Positions 15,269-20,710 of a DNA stretch of 64,000 bases are shown here, piece by piece. The stretch lies in the NCBI GenBank assembly GCA_014435945.1, contig GCA_014435945.1_4088.1; one strand, given 5' to 3'. The DNA comes from a phage. The position numbers were made by a program, and so were the translations under genes. Below the pieces are notes generated by a model that had not been told where the DNA came from, did no database searches, and saw only the letters and a program-made list of their open reading frames with translations. The first letter of the stretch is position 1, and each line of letters starts with the position of its first letter.

Positions 15269-15697
15269 ATGGCATTTAACCAGCAGTTTAACCCAGCGAA
15301 GATTACTAACTCCAAACAGGCTCAAGGTATCTTCCCTATAAAAAATATACAAAAGTATAAAAGTAATAACCAACCTATATACCGTAGTTCTTGGGAAAAG
15401 GATATCATGATATCTTTAGACAACAACCCTGCGGTTATAGAGTGGAGTGTAGAGCCATTTAGTATTCCTTACGTGAATCCAGTTGATAATGCAGTTCATC
15501 AGTACTGGCCTGATTTTTATGTACTTTATATTGGTGCAGATGGTAAACAACATGCTCAAGTACTGGAAGTTAAACCGTACAAACAATGTCACATGGAAAT
15601 GGCTAAATCCAAGAAAGACAAAATCACCGTTGCGATTAACCAATCAAAATGGGCATATGCAATGGAATTTTGCAAAAATAACCGGATTGGAATTTAA
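15269..15697 (+). CDS. hypothetical protein with possible PD-(D/E)xK nuclease-like motif
   Basis: 142 aa; [23 protein letters not shown] contains a D ... E-x-K arrangement. Confidence 0.3.
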
Positions 15698-15727
15698 AAT
15701 CATTACAGAAAGGAATCTATATAAAAA

Positions 15728-16285
15728 ATGAAACCTAAACAACAAGTCGATGAAGCACTGGGATTACCTAGTGCTCAACAATGGATGGAAATGACAGGCC
15801 AGGAGCCTGAAGAAGATACAGAGATGGATTTGTATCAGGATGACGAAGATGAACAGAGTGAAACTGAAATTTCACTAGAAGAGGCAAAAGCTGCAATGGA
15901 AAAATTGAAAGCTATGCGTGTTCAGTTGCGTGAACTTCCAGATATTACAGCAAGAAAAACTCAATTAGATCGTTTAGCACAGATGGCAGAACGTAAGTTT
16001 GAAGATATTTTCGACCGTGCTTTCAACTGTGAAGACCGTTTTGCAGCAGAAATGATTAACGCTGCAAACTCTATGTTGAAAATTGCTCTCGATGCTCATG
16101 CAAAAATCATTGATTCTGACGTTAAATTAGTAGATCTCCAACTCAAGAAAGATAAGATGGAAATCGAACTAAACCTTAAACCTAAGAAAGTTGAGCCAGT
16201 CGGTGACCCAACAGCCATCGAAGGCCAAGCGGTTGCACATAAAACCCGCAATGAAATGCTTGCAGCAATGAACAGAAATAAATAA
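15728..16285 (+). CDS. hypothetical acidic coiled-coil protein
   Basis: 185-aa ORF, E/D-rich. Confidence 0.4.
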
Positions 16286-16312
16286 CTTAAACGACCTTAT
16301 GGAGTTATTAAA

Positions 16313-16846
16313 ATGAATAGATTACAACAAATCCTAACGGATAAAAAACCAGTTTTTGAATACCGAGTCAAGTTTGCAGTTGAACCTACCAATGAGCAAC
16401 TACGTAAAGTATCACAACGCCTAATGGATCGTTATGATGCATTTGATATTGGTGCACTAAAGAAAACTATTTTCATGGAAAGACCACTAGATTTTTATGA
16501 ATTAGATTGTGGTGAAATTTGGATGTTTGATTTCAAATGCCACCGTGGTGTTCAATCAAACGTACTAATGTATGAAATTGGCAACCTACTAAGTATGACT
16601 GAAGCTCTAATCCGTGTACGTAGTAAAGATGAACCACGTCAACAAGAAATGACCGAACTCGAAGATGATATTGACTTTGACGATTACGAACCAGTAATTG
16701 GTGTTGATTTTGGTAAACCAGAAGACAGCCACGATTTAGCTGGTGAAGAACGTGCTGTAACCGCAGTTAAAGATGCGATTGAAGCAGTAAAAAGTGACAA
16801 TAAATACTCTCAATATATGAGTGCTGGTTTTGGTAAAAAGGATTGA
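16313..16846 (+). CDS. hypothetical protein
   Basis: 177-aa ORF. Confidence 0.4.
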   Translation: MNRLQQILTDKKPVFEYRVKFAVEPTNEQLRKVSQRLMDRYDAFDIGALKKTIFMERPLDFYELDCGEIWMFDFKCHRGVQSNVLMYEIGNLLSMTEALIRVRSKDEPRQQEMTELEDDIDFDDYEPVIGVDFGKPEDSHDLAGEERAVTAVKDAIEAVKSDNKYSQYMSAGFGKKD

Positions 16847-16849
16847 GAC

Positions 16850-17395
16850 ATGAGTATACTTAATGAAATGTTAGATTATAATGATGAAGAGCTAAATGAA
16901 GCTCGTCCATATAGTCGTTCACAAAGTGCAGTAGATAGTGCAAAAGGAAAAGTAAAAGGCTTTTTCGGTAGTGGTCAAGTAGAACAAGGTGCACAAGAAG
17001 TTGGTGCAGAAGCAAACCGTCTTTGGGCTGAATTTAAACGCTATGTTGGACGCAAATACGGTAAAGCACAGCCATCAGTACCATATGCTGATGTTGCACA
17101 ATTCTTCAAAGGAAATAACCTTGATATAAAACATTTGGGCAATAACAGTCGTCGTACTTTTACTCCTAAAGATGTTGGTTCTGCTCTATTGGCAGCAGCA
17201 CGTGACTTGATGAATGATTATCGTGATGATGATAAAGGTGAAGAACAACAACGTCCTGCACCACAAGCTCAACCTGACAATGCTCCACAATCAGCACCAC
17301 AGGAACAGCCAAAAGCACAAGGTTCTAGTATCCCTGATGCTCTACAAAAATTAAGTCCAGAGCAGCGTGAACAACTTTTGCGTATGCTTTCTTAA
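16850..17395 (+). CDS. hypothetical protein (Q/P-rich C-terminus)
   Basis: 181-aa ORF. Confidence 0.4.
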   Translation: MSILNEMLDYNDEELNEARPYSRSQSAVDSAKGKVKGFFGSGQVEQGAQEVGAEANRLWAEFKRYVGRKYGKAQPSVPYADVAQFFKGNNLDIKHLGNNSRRTFTPKDVGSALLAAARDLMNDYRDDDKGEEQQRPAPQAQPDNAPQSAPQEQPKAQGSSIPDALQKLSPEQREQLLRMLS

Positions 17396-18920: not shown

Positions 18921-18942
18921 TAACTAAAAGGATTTATTTAAA

Positions 18943-19935
18943 ATGGCTAAAAAAATTAATGAAGCACAAGTTAAAATCGATATCGCAGGTCTAGAATCTG
19001 AAGATCTAGAAACACTATCTCGTATGCTTGCATTAGCTGGTCAAGCAGAGCGTCAAGCTTCTCCTGTTGCTGCTCCAGTTCCTTCTATGGGGTCTATGAC
19101 CCCTTCTCTACCACCAATCGCTCCACTCGACATGGATTCCATTGGTGCGGGTGCTGAAGAAGAAGTTGGTGGTACAATGGATGGTGCGATTGATGCACCA
19201 GTTGAAGACCCATTGGAAGTAGCTGCTGACTCACTATCTGCTGAAGCTGGTGATTTTGGTGGTGATTCTGAAGAAGTAAGTATGGATGCAGAGTTCGAAG
19301 AGCCTGGTGTTGCAGATGAAGAAGAGTTTTCTTTAGATCTTTCCGGTCAACCTCAACTAGAATCAGTTGAAGAAGAGGAAGAAGAAGAAGAAATCATCGA
19401 AGAAGAATTCGATTTCAGTCGTATGCTATCTCTAGCTGGTCTTCAAGACGAACCAGAAGATGAATATTCAGTAGAAGGTAACCCAGATACTGAAGTTAAA
19501 GTTGAAGAAAACACTTTCCTACCAGACCTAACCATCTCTGAAGATGAAGAACAAGGTGACAGTACTGATTTTGGTCCTTACAACACTGAAGCTGATGCTG
19601 TTCGTGACGGTCAAGCTAAAACTAATGGTGTAGAAGGTGACCACTTTGTTGTTATTACCAAGGGTAACAAGTTCTACTGGAGACGTGTCGTTGATGAAGA
19701 TGTTGACAATCGTCCTGAACCAGAGTACTATGACAATGACGGTAACGAGAACCGTGTTCACAAATTTGAACCTAAGTTTCCAGGTACTGCTCTAGGTGAC
19801 AACCCACTCAATGTTAATGAGAGTGATGAGTCAGTGGAAGGTAACGAAGAACTAGAAGATGAAAGCGATGAAGAAGTCGAAGACATTTTCGAAAGTCTCC
19901 AGAAGAAATATCAACAATTTCTAGGGGACAAATAA
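18943..19935 (+). CDS. hypothetical highly acidic protein
   Basis: 330 aa with poly-E run EEEEEEEEIIEEEF and overall strong negative charge. Confidence 0.45.
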   Translation: MAKKINEAQVKIDIAGLESEDLETLSRMLALAGQAERQASPVAAPVPSMGSMTPSLPPIAPLDMDSIGAGAEEEVGGTMDGAIDAPVEDPLEVAADSLSAEAGDFGGDSEEVSMDAEFEEPGVADEEEFSLDLSGQPQLESVEEEEEEEEIIEEEFDFSRMLSLAGLQDEPEDEYSVEGNPDTEVKVEENTFLPDLTISEDEEQGDSTDFGPYNTEADAVRDGQAKTNGVEGDHFVVITKGNKFYWRRVVDEDVDNRPEPEYYDNDGNENRVHKFEPKFPGTALGDNPLNVNESDESVEGNEELEDESDEEVEDIFESLQKKYQQFLGDK

Positions 19936-19936
19936 G

Positions 19937-20329
19937 ATGGGATATAATTATCGTGAATTGGTTGAAGCATTAGATGAAATCACTTCTAGTGAAGAATCTA
20001 CTGAAGAAGAAAGTTTTGCAGTTGAGACTCCTTCTGATGCTGTTGCCACCGATTTACTTAAAGATATCACCGAATGCCTTATCCACATTGTGGATAAGGT
20101 TAAATCAGGTGAAGATCAAAAAGAAATCGTAGAAAAGCTTCAAAAAGCGTGTGACATTTTATCGGATGTTCGATATAATGATGAAAGTACTGAAGAAGTT
20201 GATGAATCCACTGATTGCTGCTTCGGAACCAAAGATATGGGTCCGAAAATTGGTAAAGATGGTGTCCAAGACTATAAAGTTAAAGATGCTCCTTCATATG
20301 CAGCAAGACAGGGTTTCGTGGGGATGTAA
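19937..20329 (+). CDS. hypothetical acidic protein
   Basis: 130-aa ORF. Confidence 0.4.
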   Translation: MGYNYRELVEALDEITSSEESTEEESFAVETPSDAVATDLLKDITECLIHIVDKVKSGEDQKEIVEKLQKACDILSDVRYNDESTEEVDESTDCCFGTKDMGPKIGKDGVQDYKVKDAPSYAARQGFVGM

Positions 20330-20332
20330 TTT

Positions 20333-20710
20333 ATGATTCCTGAACCACACAACAGTACTGAATTTCAAAACGATGTACTTTTAAAAGTTAGAGAAGTACA
20401 TGGATCAGACGCTGAATTAACAGACCGTATGCTTCTGATGTCAATTTTTGAAAATTTCAGAACTGGCGGTGGTTTAAGACTTAGCAAGTTTGGATATACA
20501 ATTTGTAAAGAAAACATTCTTTATGAATTTACAAAAATCCCCTTGCAAAGAGAGTTCAAAAGTTCTATAATCTTTACATCGCTTGATAGGATATGTACTT
20601 CACCCTACTATGTAGAAGGGCAGTACATATACCTCTCGGACGCAATGATAGTTACAGAGTTAACATTGTGTGGTGATGATTTTAGAATGTTATTTTCGAT
20701 GCACATGTAG
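20333..20710 (+). CDS. hypothetical protein
   Basis: 125-aa ORF. Confidence 0.35.
   Translation: MIPEPHNSTEFQNDVLLKVREVHGSDAELTDRMLLMSIFENFRTGGGLRLSKFGYTICKENILYEFTKIPLQREFKSSIIFTSLDRICTSPYYVEGQYIYLSDAMIVTELTLCGDDFRMLFSMHM

What the first reader, a model, noticed from the sequence alone, without database searches (positions are those of the whole stretch)
15269..20710. Block of eight uncharacterised, largely acidic proteins between the tail module and the MoxR operon
The block includes a possible PD-(D/E)xK-motif protein (15269-15697), a protein with an internal about 90-aa duplication and PE-rich linker (17409-18920), and a 330-aa protein with a poly-Glu run (18943-19935). Strongly acidic proteins in phages are sometimes DNA mimics such as anti-restriction proteins, or internal head proteins. 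Nothing here could be assigned by eye, which makes it a candidate for undescribed function.
Basis: inference. Interest (0 to 1): 0.45.

Follow-up and report, generated by a model that had tools for sequence, protein, structure and literature searches.

The report
Jumbo-phage head-internal protein gene block
This conserved late-gene block of a RaK2/121Q-type jumbo coliphage encodes a T4 gp4-like head-completion nuclease and seven clade-specific proteins, most of them known virion components whose T4-style targeting and cleavage signals suggest they are packed inside the head.

Summary
The eight ORFs exist exactly as described. The window is a RaK2/121Q-like jumbo coliphage, 99% identical to Ecwhy_1 and fEgEco12. 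The block is syntenic across that whole clade.

O1 is a clear orthologue of the T4 gp4 head-completion nuclease (TnsA-like PD-(D/E)xK). The orthologues of O3-O7 were already found in virions by mass spectrometry (RaK2; some also in phAPEC6, PA5oct and JP4). They are therefore "virion structural proteins of unknown role", not wholly unknown.

New here:
- O3, O4, O6 and O7 carry conserved N-terminal 7-17-residue segments that end in L/I-x-E.
- This is the cleavage motif of the T4 gp21-type (S77) prohead protease, which relative 121Q encodes.
- O6 also has a conserved C-terminal site.
- The wider O3 family has the consensus start MKSFKQYLAE|S, which closely matches the T4 internal-protein capsid-targeting sequence MKTYQEFIAE|A.
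- In distant megaphages the block core lies between gp4 and the large terminase.

Best reading: these are prohead-core-targeted internal head proteins and candidates for the unassigned inner body of 121Q/phAPEC6. A DNA-mimic anti-restriction role is not supported. O2 and O8 remain unassigned. Localisation and cleavage are inferred, not shown.

The parts
15269..15697 (+). O1: T4 gp4-like head-completion protein with a TnsA-like PD-(D/E)xK nuclease fold (142 aa, pI 9.15)
   Evidence: Pfam PF08722 at E=8.6e-17 and PHROG 218 'head closure' at E=1.2e-39. BLASTP to T4 gp4 gives 30% identity and E=6e-15, with E62, D82, E100 and K102 conserved. It was not detected in RaK2 or phAPEC6 virions.
15728..16285 (+). 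O2: 185-aa protein with an acidic N-terminal region and a helical remainder. It always lies directly upstream of O3. It is not a virion component. It is either an assembly/packaging factor or possibly a small terminase subunit; this is unresolved.
   Evidence: phrog_16202, function unknown. Full-length homologues sit between gp4 and O3 in RaK2, GAP32, CBB, Yen9-04, XaC1, a Vibrio phage, PA5oct and 16 megaphage contigs. It is absent from the RaK2, phAPEC6 and JP4 virion proteomes. hhalign to T4 gp16 gives only E=0.23 over 17 columns, and there is no Pfam hit.
16313..16846 (+). O3: virion protein. It has an N-terminal 10-mer resembling a capsid-targeting sequence (MNRLQQILTD, nt 16313-16342), a ferredoxin-like core (aa 12-105), a disordered acidic segment (aa 106-143) and two C-terminal helices.
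16850..17395 (+). O4: 181-aa virion protein with two conserved N-terminal L-x-E sites (aa 4-6 and 15-17, the second just before the conserved RPYSR), a basic Gly/Lys-rich conserved core, a Q/P-rich linker and a C-terminal helix. The database label 'Hsp70' is unfounded.
   Evidence: RaK2 gp048 is in the virion (18.8% coverage, 3 peptides). The motif is conserved in 8 taxa. There is no HSP70 or other Pfam or NCBIfam hit.
17409..18920 (+). O5: 503-aa modular virion protein. It has three copies of a ~95-aa beta3-alpha-beta3/4 domain (aa 7-100, 138-226, 295-388; nt 17427-17708, 17820-18086, 18291-18572). Two disordered Pro/Glu-rich linkers lie at aa 254-295 and 404-447. A conserved C-terminal four-helix domain lies at aa 448-503.
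18943..19935 (+). O6: 330-aa very acidic virion protein (net charge -74). It has an N-terminal MAKKINE|A, two 'RMxxLAG' motifs (aa 27-33 and 160-166), an E8 run (aa 143-150), a conserved folded C-terminal domain (aa ~205-290) and a conserved I-F-E|S site 13 residues from the C-terminus.
   Evidence: Among 88 family representatives, 83 have an N-terminal [LIVM]xE[ASGT], 86 have the C-terminal [LIVM]xE|S, 68 have two RMxxLAG motifs, and all have net charge from -36 to -87. One peptide was found in each of RaK2 gp050 and phAPEC6 gp267c.
19937..20329 (+). O7: 130-aa acidic virion protein. Its first 10 residues are MGYNYRELVE|A, with L8 and E10, the same geometry as the T4 IPIII targeting sequence. 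It also has a conserved C-terminal ...SY..RQGFVG motif.
   Evidence: RaK2 gp051 is in the virion (18.7% coverage, 2 peptides). [LM]xE|[AS] lies at positions 9-13 in all 8 orthologues. The Pfam phiKZ_IP hit is below threshold (18.6 bits against 27) and appears in only 2 of 8 orthologues.
20333..20710 (+). O8: 125-aa conserved protein of unknown role and the last gene of the block. It has not been detected in virions.
   Evidence: phrog_15638, function unknown. It is conserved in all 8 taxa. It is absent from the RaK2, phAPEC6 and JP4 proteomes. There are no Pfam or NCBIfam hits.
20737..20856 (+). Downstream boundary of the block: two tandem perfect sigma-70 promoters (TTGACA-16-TATAAT with an extended TG) that start the separate MoxR ATPase/vWA transcription unit.
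   Evidence: Each scores 12 of 12 consensus matches, at 20737-20764 and 20829-20856. A third 10-of-12 site lies at 20959-20987. No comparable promoter and no T-tailed terminator lies between 13336 and 20710.

Best explanation
The block is a conserved late-gene head-completion and head-internal-protein module of RaK2/121Q-type (T4-like 'group 2.2') jumbo phages. It is probably co-transcribed with the tail-tube genes.

O1 is the orthologue of the T4 gp4 head-completion nuclease.

O3, O4, O5, O6 and O7 are virion proteins. That is shown by published proteomics of orthologues. I infer that they sit inside the capsid.
- Their short N-terminal segments act like T4 capsid-targeting sequences.
- These segments dock the proteins onto the gp22-like scaffolding core while the prohead assembles.
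- The gp21-type (S77) prohead protease then cuts after the conserved L/I-x-E. In O6 it also cuts near the C-terminus.
- This frees the mature parts, which stay in the DNA-filled head.
- The mature parts are a ferredoxin-like domain with an acidic tail (O3), a multi-repeat module with flexible linkers (O5) and long polyacidic disordered chains (O6, O7).

These proteins are plausible building blocks of the radiation-sensitive inner body seen in 121Q and phAPEC6, or proteins ejected with the DNA.

O2 and O8 are absent from virions. They are most likely assembly or packaging factors.
For: Shown:
- The eight genes are real and syntenic from E. coli to Klebsiella, Cronobacter, Pectobacterium, Yersinia, Xanthomonas and Vibrio phages.
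- O1 is a gp4 orthologue.
- Orthologues of O3-O7 are in RaK2 virions. O3, O5 and O6 are in phAPEC6, O3 is in PA5oct and O3 is in JP4. In JP4 the label-free intensity of O3 (1.9e7) is similar to that of a tail-tube protein (1.3e7).
- Relative 121Q encodes a Peptidase_S77 (T4 gp21 family) protease (E=1e-20). Its major capsid protein has L-T-E43|S, which predicts the reported change from 42.2 to about 37 kDa.
- T4 gp21 cuts after L/I-x-E. Internal-protein propeptides are 10-19 residues long, with targeting residues 4 and 7 and processing residues 8 and 10 (PMC9026906).

Found here:
- Conserved N-terminal sites: O4 (L-x-E twice), O6 (I-N-E|A in 83 of 88 relatives, plus a C-terminal I-x-E|S in 86 of 88) and O7 (L8-x-E10|A).
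- Four of the 7 block genes O2-O8 carry [LIVM]xE[AS] in the first 22 residues, against 2 of 45 other window ORFs (Fisher p=0.0017).
- The O3 family's consensus start MKSFKQYLAE|S resembles T4 IPIII/IPII MKTYQEFIAE|A and IPI MKTFKEF....
- The similarity score of the family's N-termini to the T4 targeting sequence has a median of 9.5, against -7 for background (p=4e-13). The best family members score 23, the same level as T4 IPI against IPIII (24).
- A strict targeting-sequence pattern hits only O3 in the window and the gp22-like scaffold protein in 121Q.
- In PA5oct and in 416-480 kb megaphage contigs the order is tube, gp4, O2, O3, an acidic 'LAG-motif' protein, then TerL. That is a head/packaging neighbourhood.
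- 121Q and phAPEC6 have an inner body whose proteins are unidentified.
Against: - No experiment places these proteins in the head rather than the tail or neck, and no cleavage has been observed.
- L/I-x-E is a three-residue motif that I defined after looking at the data.
- O3 in this window has Asp, not Glu, at position 10, and about a third of the O3 family lacks the Glu.
- O5 has no N-terminal site.
- O2 also has a conserved N-terminus but is not in virions, and in distant relatives its motif is not a clean L-x-E.
- The genes follow the tail-tube genes directly, with no terminator between them.
- The T4 internal proteins are basic, whereas these are acidic.
- Peptide counts are low for O6 and O7.
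- RaK2 and phAPEC6 contain much more abundant unassigned proteins (for example phAPEC6 gp210 and gp211) that could form the inner body instead.
- The protease gene lies outside this window. I checked it only in 121Q, which is 83% identical over this block.
- There is no fold or sequence homology to any known internal head protein.
Confidence: 0.55

Rival explanations
1. O3-O7 are tail, neck or external decoration components, such as a tube terminator or initiator, tail-assembly factors, or the 'hairy' fibres and capsid decorations of 121Q/phAPEC6. On this reading they are encoded here simply because the block continues the sheath-tube operon.
For: The block lies directly after the sheath and three tube paralogues on the same strand, with no terminator-like site in between. 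Virion mass spectrometry does not separate head from tail. phAPEC6 has unassigned decoration proteins, vertex proteins and tail/capsid fibres. O5 is a beads-on-a-string repeat protein whose copy number varies between relatives, as is common in fibres and decorations. In T4, gp4 is followed by gp2 and then the tube terminator gp3, which is about the size of O3.
Against: O3's model matches only the generic ferredoxin-like superfold, and no tail terminator appears among the hits. hhalign of O3 against T4 gp3 finds nothing. O5 matches no solved tail or fibre domain. The conserved N-terminal (and, in O6, C-terminal) protease-type sites and the targeting-like start are unexplained by a tail role, because the S77 protease acts inside proheads. 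In distant relatives the core of the block abuts TerL. The long polyacidic disordered chains of O6 are unlike known tail parts.
Confidence: 0.2
2. Most of the block, especially O2, O6, O7 and O8, consists of transient prohead-core, scaffold-like or packaging factors that are degraded or expelled. Only trace fragments would remain in virions. O2 may be the small terminase subunit.
For: O2 and O8 are never detected in virions, and O6 gives only one peptide in each of two proteomes. O6 and O7 are built like T4 gp67 and 121Q gp600: a helical N-terminus starting with an L-x-E|A site, followed by a polyacidic tail. fEgEco12 annotates O2 as a small terminase subunit. O2 lies two genes upstream of TerL in PA5oct and the megaphages. 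The only hhalign match of O2 to T4 gp16 falls on the gp16 core helix.
Against: The overall density of L/I-x-E sites in these proteins is not raised, unlike the true scaffold protein, which has 28 sites. O6's low peptide count is expected anyway, because its acidic core has almost no Lys or Arg. The support for a small terminase is statistically null: hhalign E=0.23, and no Pfam, NCBIfam or PHROG hit. O3, O4, O5 and O7 give several peptides each in RaK2.
Confidence: 0.17
3. The strongly acidic proteins O6 and O7 are DNA mimics that block host restriction or other DNA-binding defences, in the manner of Ocr or ArdA.
For: O6 has extreme negative charge (net -74; family range -36 to -87), and O7 has pI 4.2. 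If these proteins are packaged and ejected with the DNA, they would reach the cell at the right moment. T4 IPI and the P1 Dar proteins do this (T4 IPI; P1 from general knowledge).
Against: Across orthologues the acidic regions vary in length and sequence and are low in complexity, and the conserved parts lie elsewhere. No hit to any anti-restriction family appears at E<=1. The genes lie in a late structural operon with no early promoter, whereas the neighbouring MoxR unit has consensus early-type promoters. Known mimics are compact folded proteins with ordered charge arrays, which was not seen here.
Confidence: 0.06

Closest known systems
T4 internal proteins IPI, IPII, IPIII and Alt (targeted to the capsid by an N-terminal capsid-targeting sequence and processed by gp21)
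   Same: A short N-terminal propeptide ends in L/I-x-E, followed by a small residue. In O7 the key residues are at positions 8 and 10, as in IPIII. The O3-family consensus MKSFKQYLAE|S resembles MKTYQEFIAE|A. O6 has sites at both ends, like Alt. The proteins are in mature virions. The phage clade has an S77 protease and a gp22-like scaffold.
   Different: There is no sequence or fold homology beyond the ~10-residue signal. These proteins are acidic, whereas the T4 internal proteins are basic. The genes are clustered next to gp4 instead of scattered. Cleavage and packaging are untested. The window's O3 has Asp at position 10, which in T4 IPIII blocks processing but not targeting.
T4 gp67/gp68 prohead core proteins, and 121Q gp600
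   Same: O6 and O7 share the design of a helical N-terminus that opens with an L-x-E|A site, followed by a long Asp/Glu-rich tail. T4 gp67 starts MEGLIE|A, 121Q gp600 starts MANLKLLQE|A, and O6 starts MAKKINE|A.
   Different: The genes are not located in the portal-protease-scaffold-capsid module. O6 is much longer, has a conserved folded C-terminal domain and carries two RMxxLAG motifs. No detectable homology was found.
phiKZ inner-body proteins (Pfam phiKZ_IP; gp89, 90, 93, 95, 97 and 162)
   Same: They are a clustered set of genes for abundant head-internal proteins processed by a gp21-related protease after Glu. 121Q and phAPEC6 show a phiKZ-like inner body in bubblegrams.
   Different: The Pfam phiKZ_IP match to O7 is below threshold and is seen in only 2 of 8 orthologues. 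The phAPEC6 authors found no similarity to the phiKZ inner-body proteins. The phiKZ cleavage motif is S/A-x-E, not L/I-x-E. The block proteins are not paralogues of one another.
T4 gp4 head-completion nuclease (applies to O1 only)
   Same: 30% identity, the same TnsA-like REase domain, conserved E/D/ExK residues, a similar length and a late structural gene context.
   Different: In T4, gp4 is followed by gp2 and gp3. Here it is followed by clade-specific genes with no detectable similarity to gp2 or gp3.

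Membership tests
T4 gp4 head-completion protein / TnsA-like PD-(D/E)xK nuclease (O1) | Match to the TnsA-like N-terminal endonuclease domain above the curated threshold | tested here: met
   PF08722 at 61.9 bits against a cut-off of 26.5, E=8.6e-17. PHROG 218 'head closure' at E=1.2e-39.
T4 gp4 head-completion protein / TnsA-like PD-(D/E)xK nuclease (O1) | Direct similarity to T4 gp4 with the catalytic E...D...ExK residues conserved | tested here: met
   BLASTP gives 30% identity over 127 aa, E=6e-15. E62, D82, E100 and K102 align with the T4 motifs SET, MDI and IEIK.
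T4 gp4 head-completion protein / TnsA-like PD-(D/E)xK nuclease (O1) | Nuclease activity required for head morphogenesis | not testable with these tools
   Reported for T4 gp4 (Benler 2020, cited in PMC7824862). Not measurable here.
T4-type capsid-targeted internal head / prohead-core proteins (O3, O4, O6, O7) | The phage encodes a gp21-type (Peptidase S77) prohead protease and a gp22-like scaffold | tested here: met
   121Q gp601 matches PF03420 at E=1e-20, and scaffold gp602 and capsid protein gp603 are adjacent. This was tested in the relative, because the head module lies outside the window.
T4-type capsid-targeted internal head / prohead-core proteins (O3, O4, O6, O7) | An N-terminal propeptide of about 7-19 residues ending in L/I-x-E and conserved among orthologues | tested here: met
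   O4 has L-N-E at residues 6 and 17. O6 has I-N-E at residue 7 (83 of 88 relatives). O7 has L-V-E at residue 10 (8 of 8 orthologues have [LM]xE). O3 has L8-T9-D10 in the window and E10 in 121Q; 54 of 149 family members have exactly [LIF]8-x-E10.
T4-type capsid-targeted internal head / prohead-core proteins (O3, O4, O6, O7) | Presence in the mature virion | tested here: met
   From published proteomes read here: RaK2 gp047-gp051, phAPEC6 gp267c, gp268c and gp270c, PA5oct 0202 and JP4_291.
T4-type capsid-targeted internal head / prohead-core proteins (O3, O4, O6, O7) | Demonstrated cleavage at the site and location inside the capsid | not testable with these tools
   The proteomics tables available give only protein-level coverage and no neo-N-terminal peptides.
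T4-type capsid-targeted internal head / prohead-core proteins (O3, O4, O6, O7) | Sequence or fold homology of the mature part to T4 IPI, IPII, IPIII, Alt, gp67 or gp68 | tested here: not met
phiKZ inner-body proteins (Pfam PF12699 phiKZ_IP) | Pfam match above the gathering threshold, consistent across orthologues | tested here: not met
   O7 scores 18.6 bits against a cut-off of 27 (E=1.2e-3), and only 2 of 8 orthologues hit.
Ocr/ArdA-type DNA-mimic anti-restriction proteins | Family match or a compact folded acidic protein, together with early expression | tested here: not met
   No such Pfam or NCBIfam hit at E<=1. The acidic regions are variable and gap-rich in the alignment. The block has no strong promoter, unlike the downstream early-type promoters. 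No structure was predicted for O6 or O7.
Small terminase subunit, T4 gp16 type (O2) | Detectable homology to gp16 / the Pfam DNA_Packaging family | tested here: inconclusive
   hhalign of the O2 profile against T4 gp16 gives E=0.23 over 17 columns on the gp16 core helix. None of the 9 O2 homologues hits Pfam. NCBIfam gives nothing. The gene lies two genes upstream of TerL in distant relatives.
Hsp70 (database label for O4) | HSP70 domain | tested here: not met
   No HSP70 hit in Pfam or NCBIfam. The protein has only 181 aa. The label comes only from the name of phrog_16152.

The most novel reading that the evidence does not exclude
The block O3-O7 encodes the protein inner body of 121Q/phAPEC6-type jumbo phages. 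This structure would be functionally like the phiKZ inner body but built from unrelated, largely acidic and disordered proteins. They would be loaded through a T4-type capsid-targeting sequence and trimmed by the S77 protease. The O3 family, with its MKSFxxYLxE|S start, would then mark a widespread and previously unrecognised class of capsid-targeted cargo proteins in T4-like megaphages of 400-480 kb.
Probability: 0.2. Interest if true: 0.7.

Novelty: new variant of a known kind. Interest (0 to 1): 0.45.

Why it matters
121Q and phAPEC6 are the only phages outside the phiKZ group reported to have an inner body, and its proteins have never been identified. This block gives a short, testable list of candidates and a predicted loading signal.

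If the 10-residue start of the O3 family really works as a capsid-targeting sequence, it would show that the T4 cargo-loading mechanism is conserved across very distant megaphages. It would also give a ready tag for packaging foreign proteins into jumbo-phage heads.

The work also corrects several misleading database labels ('Hsp70', 'terminase small subunit', 'HdfR', 'HNH endonuclease').

Tried and rejected
- PDB sequence search with all eight proteins: no hit.
- Pfam, PHROGs and NCBIfam: only O1 is assigned. O2-O8 match only their own clade-specific PHROGs.
- phiKZ_IP homology of O7: rejected, because the hit is below threshold and appears in only 2 of 8 orthologues.
- O2 as T4 gp16 or gp2, O3 as T4 gp3, and O4 as T4 gp2, all suggested by the T4 gene order gp4-gp2-gp3: hhalign E=0.23, 0.39, 0.57 and 0.03, with probability below 2% in every case.
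- O5 against the PA5oct 498-aa neighbour: no similarity.
- BFVD search with O3: only uncharacterised proteins.
- Paralogy among the eight proteins: none.
- Global enrichment of L/I-x-E sites, the signature of a scaffold protein: not found.
- T4 late promoter TATAAATA: absent from the window.
- The phiKp24 cryo-EM paper and the fEgEco12 genome paper: no information on these genes.
- The CBB paper text: no mention of gp209-214.
- The search for related loci with the wide O3 alignment failed because no stretch was conserved enough. A narrower alignment worked.

Full report
**Identity of the window and reality of the observation**

The block 15269-20710 holds eight consecutive + strand ORFs, here called O1-O8. 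They are 142, 185, 177, 181, 503, 330, 130 and 125 aa long. Each starts at an ATG preceded by a purine-rich Shine-Dalgarno-like stretch. The DNA is 98-99.4% identical to the Escherichia jumbo phages Ecwhy_1, WPEC5, BF17 and fEgEco12. It is 83% identical to the Asteriusvirus phages 121Q, PBECO4 and phAPEC6. A tblastn search with the concatenated proteins O2-O8 finds the same block, in the same order, in 54 phage records. These include RaK2, K64-1, GAP32, CBB, Yersinia fHe-Yen9-04, Xanthomonas XaC1 and a Vibrio phage.

- O1 is a PD-(D/E)xK protein.
- O5 has an internal ~95-aa duplication. Its Smith-Waterman score is 144, against 33.6 +/- 5.3 for shuffled sequence.
- O5 has Pro/Glu-rich linkers that are disordered in the model.
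- O6 has an E8 run, pI 4.05 and net charge -74.

Two corrections are needed. O1 is basic (pI 9.15), and O4, O5 and O8 are only mildly acidic. O5 has three repeat copies rather than two, and its 67 relatives carry 2-5 copies.

**What was already known**

O1 matches Pfam Tn7_TnsA-like_N (E=8.6e-17) and PHROG 218 'head closure'. It is 30% identical to T4 gp4 (E=6e-15), with E62, D82, E100 and K102 conserved. A comparative study of jumbo phages lists this TnsA-like head-completion nuclease as a hallmark of the T4-like 'group 2'. The same study proposes the downstream MoxR-vWA-metallopeptidase pair as a virion-assembly chaperone (PMC7824862).

O2-O8 match only clade-specific PHROGs. Four of these are labelled 'virion structural protein', one is labelled 'Hsp70' and two have no function.

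The virion labels trace back to proteomics.
- RaK2 Table S3 lists gp047 (O3; 18.9% coverage, 4 peptides), gp048 (O4; 18.8%, 3), gp049 (O5; 17.5%, 7), gp050 (O6; 5.3%, 1) and gp051 (O7; 18.7%, 2). It does not list the O2 orthologue gp046. The search terms did not include the O1 or O8 orthologues.
- phAPEC6 lists gp270c (O3; 41%), gp268c (O5) and gp267c (O6), together with the MoxR ATPase.
- The PA5oct O3 homologue is flagged as detected by ESI-MS/MS.
- JP4_291 (O3) was found with 4 peptides. Its intensity of 1.9e7 compares with 1.3e7 for a tail-tube protein.

The block is therefore not unknown territory, but nobody has assigned these proteins a role or a location. 121Q and phAPEC6 both show a phiKZ-like inner body (91 x 18 nm) in bubblegrams. 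Its proteins are unidentified and unrelated to the phiKZ inner-body proteins. A 2025 paper on the relative Sharanji still treats the matter as open.

**The key new observation: protease-type signals at the termini**

121Q has a T4-like head module: portal, a 282-aa acidic protein gp600, a protease, a gp22-like scaffold and a gp23-like capsid protein.
- The protease matches Pfam Peptidase_S77 at E=1e-20.
- The capsid protein has ...KVMLTE43|SAT. This predicts a mature mass of about 37 kDa, as reported (42.2 to 37 kDa).

T4 gp21 cuts after L/I-x-E, and virion proteins lose N-terminal propeptides of 7-65 residues. The 10-19-residue propeptides of the internal proteins act as capsid-targeting sequences. 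Residues 4 and 7 are needed for targeting and residues 8 and 10 for processing. Asp at position 10 blocks processing but not targeting (PMC9026906). From the T4 genome itself I read IPIII/IPII MKTYQEFIAE|A, IPI MKTFKEF...ITE|A, gp22 MLKEQLIAE|A, gp67 MEGLIE|A, gp24 MAKINELLRE|S and gp23 FLTE65|A.

The block proteins begin as follows.

| Protein | N-terminus |
|---|---|
| O7 | MGYNYRELVE\|A (L8, E10) |
| O6 | MAKKINE\|A |
| O4 | MSILNE\|ML...EELNE\|ARPYSR |
| O3 | MNRLQQILTD (E10 in 121Q) |
| O2 | MKPKQQVDE\|ALGLP |

These motifs are kept in orthologues that share only 30-60% identity.
- In 88 O6-family representatives, 83 have [LIVM]xE[ASGT] in the first 14 residues (68 of them I-N-E-A).
- 86 of the 88 have [LIVM]xE|S in the last 25 residues, so both ends look processed, as in T4 Alt.
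- Within the window, 6 of 52 ORFs have [LIVM]xE[AS] in the first 22 residues, and 4 of these 6 are in this block (Fisher p=0.0017). The motif was chosen after looking at the data, so this p-value is indicative only.

**The O3 family**

A profile search of 1.84 billion cluster representatives found 414 O3 relatives at E<=1e-3. Nearly all align from residue 1. Of the top 149, 54 have exactly [LIF]8-x-E10. Their consensus is M-K-S-F-K-Q-Y-L-A-E-S. Against T4 IPIII (M-K-T-Y-Q-E-F-I-A-E-A) this is identical or conservative at nine of the first ten positions. The matches include the aromatic residues at 4 and 7, L/I at 8 and E at 10.

I scored the family N-termini against the T4 sequence.
- The median is 9.5 for the family and -7 for 448 background N-termini (Mann-Whitney p=4e-13).
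- The best family members score 23, the same as T4 IPI against IPIII (24).
- The background still contained some O3-family members and the T4 internal proteins themselves, so the comparison is conservative.
- About a third of the family lacks the Glu, and the window's own O3 has Asp10 and scores only 8.

A stricter targeting-sequence pattern matches only O3 among the 52 window ORFs. In the 121Q head module it matches only the scaffold protein (MSKLEKLLKE|S).

**Genomic context in distant relatives**

O3-family genes occur on viral contigs of 416-480 kb. There, and in PA5oct, the local order is tail tube, gp4 (TnsA_N; E=5e-24), an O2 homologue, an O3 homologue, one or two large acidic proteins and then the large terminase. 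By eye, several of these acidic proteins begin ...LDE|A... and contain an O6-like '...LxxMLxLAG' motif. The conserved core of the block therefore lies in a head-completion and packaging neighbourhood. In the RaK2/121Q clade TerL has moved elsewhere, and O4, O5, O7 and O8 have been added or retained.

**Structures**

*O3* (pLDDT 69.9; about 85 for the core) has four parts:
- an N-terminal helix (residues 3-10);
- a ferredoxin-like beta-alpha-beta-beta-beta-alpha-beta core (residues 12-105);
- a disordered acidic stretch;
- two C-terminal helices.

*O5* (pLDDT 73.9) is a string of folded modules:
- three beta3-alpha-beta3/4 modules, joined by disordered Pro/Glu-rich linkers;
- a conserved C-terminal four-helix domain.

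*O6* has a conserved N-terminal ~36 residues, two RMxxLAG motifs, a variable polyacidic middle and a conserved C-terminal domain (residues ~205-290). In design, O6 and O7 resemble T4 gp67 and 121Q gp600, which combine a helical start carrying an L-x-E|A site with a polyacidic tail.

**Transcription**

No strong sigma-70-like promoter and no T-tailed terminator lies between the hairpin at 13313-13336 (after the first tube gene) and the end of O8. Immediately downstream lie two perfect TTGACA-16-TATAAT promoters (20737-20764 and 20829-20856) and a third near-consensus one. Together they head the MoxR/vWA unit. The block therefore belongs with the late structural genes and is separate from the MoxR operon.

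**Interpretation**

*Shown:*
- the gene structure;
- clade-wide synteny;
- the identity of O1;
- virion association of the orthologues of O3-O7;
- the presence of an S77 protease in a close relative;
- conservation of the terminal motifs.

*Inferred:*
- O3, O4, O6 and O7 (and by association O5) are loaded onto the scaffolding core through their N-termini. They are trimmed by the protease and retained inside the head.

*More speculative:*
- that they form the inner body or are ejected with the DNA.

I put 0.55 on the internal-head reading and about 0.2 on the inner-body reading.

*Main rival:* a tail, neck or decoration role, suggested by the operon position and by O5's repeat architecture.

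*Other open points:*
- The DNA-mimic idea has no positive support.
- O2 may be a small terminase or a core/assembly factor. Its conserved N-terminus (MTKA[IL]EDELNLPRLE in distant relatives) is not a clean protease site, and the similarity to gp16 is not significant.
- O8 is unassigned.

**Caveats**

- The motif is short and was chosen after inspecting the data.
- The protease was examined in 121Q, not in this phage, because its head module lies outside the window.
- The proteomic tables give no peptide positions.
- Acidic internal proteins are unlike the basic T4 internal proteins.
- Other abundant unassigned virion proteins (phAPEC6 gp210 and gp211, each about 70% coverage) are equally good inner-body candidates.

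Noticed in passing
window 20737-20764, 20829-20856 and 20959-20987: Two perfect sigma-70 consensus promoters (TTGACA-16-TATAAT with an extended TG) lie ~92 bp apart within near-identical repeats, and a third site scores 10 of 12. All sit upstream of the MoxR ATPase gene. The MoxR/vWA pair therefore looks like an early or host-RNA-polymerase-transcribed unit, even though the ATPase (phAPEC6 gp265c) and the vWA protein (JP4_298) were detected in virion proteomes.
   Followed up: partly
whole window (1-64000): The T4 late-promoter motif TATAAATA is completely absent (0 matches against 6.45 +/- 2.6 expected), although the clade encodes a gp55-like late sigma factor (121Q gp591). The late promoter of this clade must differ from that of T4.
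   Followed up: no
window 16850-17395, 22432-23841, 15728-16285 and 20333-20710: Several database labels in relatives appear unfounded: 'Hsp70 heat shock protein' for O4 (181 aa, no HSP70 domain), 'HNH endonuclease' for the DUF2201-metallopeptidase/vWA protein, and, in fEgEco12, 'terminase small subunit' for O2 and 'transcriptional regulator HdfR' for O8.
   Followed up: partly
window 16313-16846 (aa 165-177) and 19937-20329 (aa 118-130): O3 and O7 are otherwise unrelated but both end in a similar motif, Y-x(4-6)-G-F-x-G (YSQYMSAGFGKKD and SYAARQGFVGM). The motif is conserved in their orthologues and may be a shared docking signal.
   Followed up: partly
window 19021-19041 and 19420-19440: O6 carries two copies of the short motif (D/E)(L/F)xx(L/F)SRMLxLAG. 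Sixty-eight of 88 family representatives have two copies. By eye, similar '...MLDLAGV' and '...LLKNAGV' motifs occur in the large acidic proteins next to TerL on 416-480 kb megaphage contigs (L017 9880-11082, L021 7712-9310).
   Followed up: partly
L005 4497-5117 (RaK2 ORF047) and L003 4153-4578 and 5285-6655 (phAPEC6 gp270c, gp268c): The annotated start codons of O3 and O5 orthologues differ between records. The RaK2 ORF047 start seems too far upstream (206 aa; the conserved start MINLQKILTD is internal). The phAPEC6 gp270c and gp268c starts seem too far downstream, which would hide the conserved N-termini.
   Followed up: no
L010 4706-6562 (Xanthomonas phage XaC1): The O5 orthologue is split into two ORFs (291 aa and 225 aa), with a low-complexity 110-aa ORF between them. 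The split falls at roughly the linker where Asteriusvirus O5 proteins carry an I-N-E|A-type site.
   Followed up: no
window 12610-15268: Three consecutive tail-tube paralogues (228, 258 and 364 aa) share the N-terminal motif ...YGVPL..G......QPKAKYKFRV. The same motif starts the tube genes on the distant megaphage contigs. Which paralogue forms the tube proper and which form a terminator or initiator is unassigned.
   Followed up: no
window 24843-25436: The DprA-like/DUF2493 protein downstream of the MoxR unit also begins with an L-x-E|A site (MNKIELDE|A). Several enzymes in this neighbourhood (thymidylate synthase and a 25-kDa protein) were reported in phAPEC6 virions. This raises the possibility that some enzymes are also packaged.
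   Followed up: no
window 23854-23875: A perfect 9-bp-stem hairpin reads as a terminator on both strands, directly after the vWA gene.
   Followed up: no
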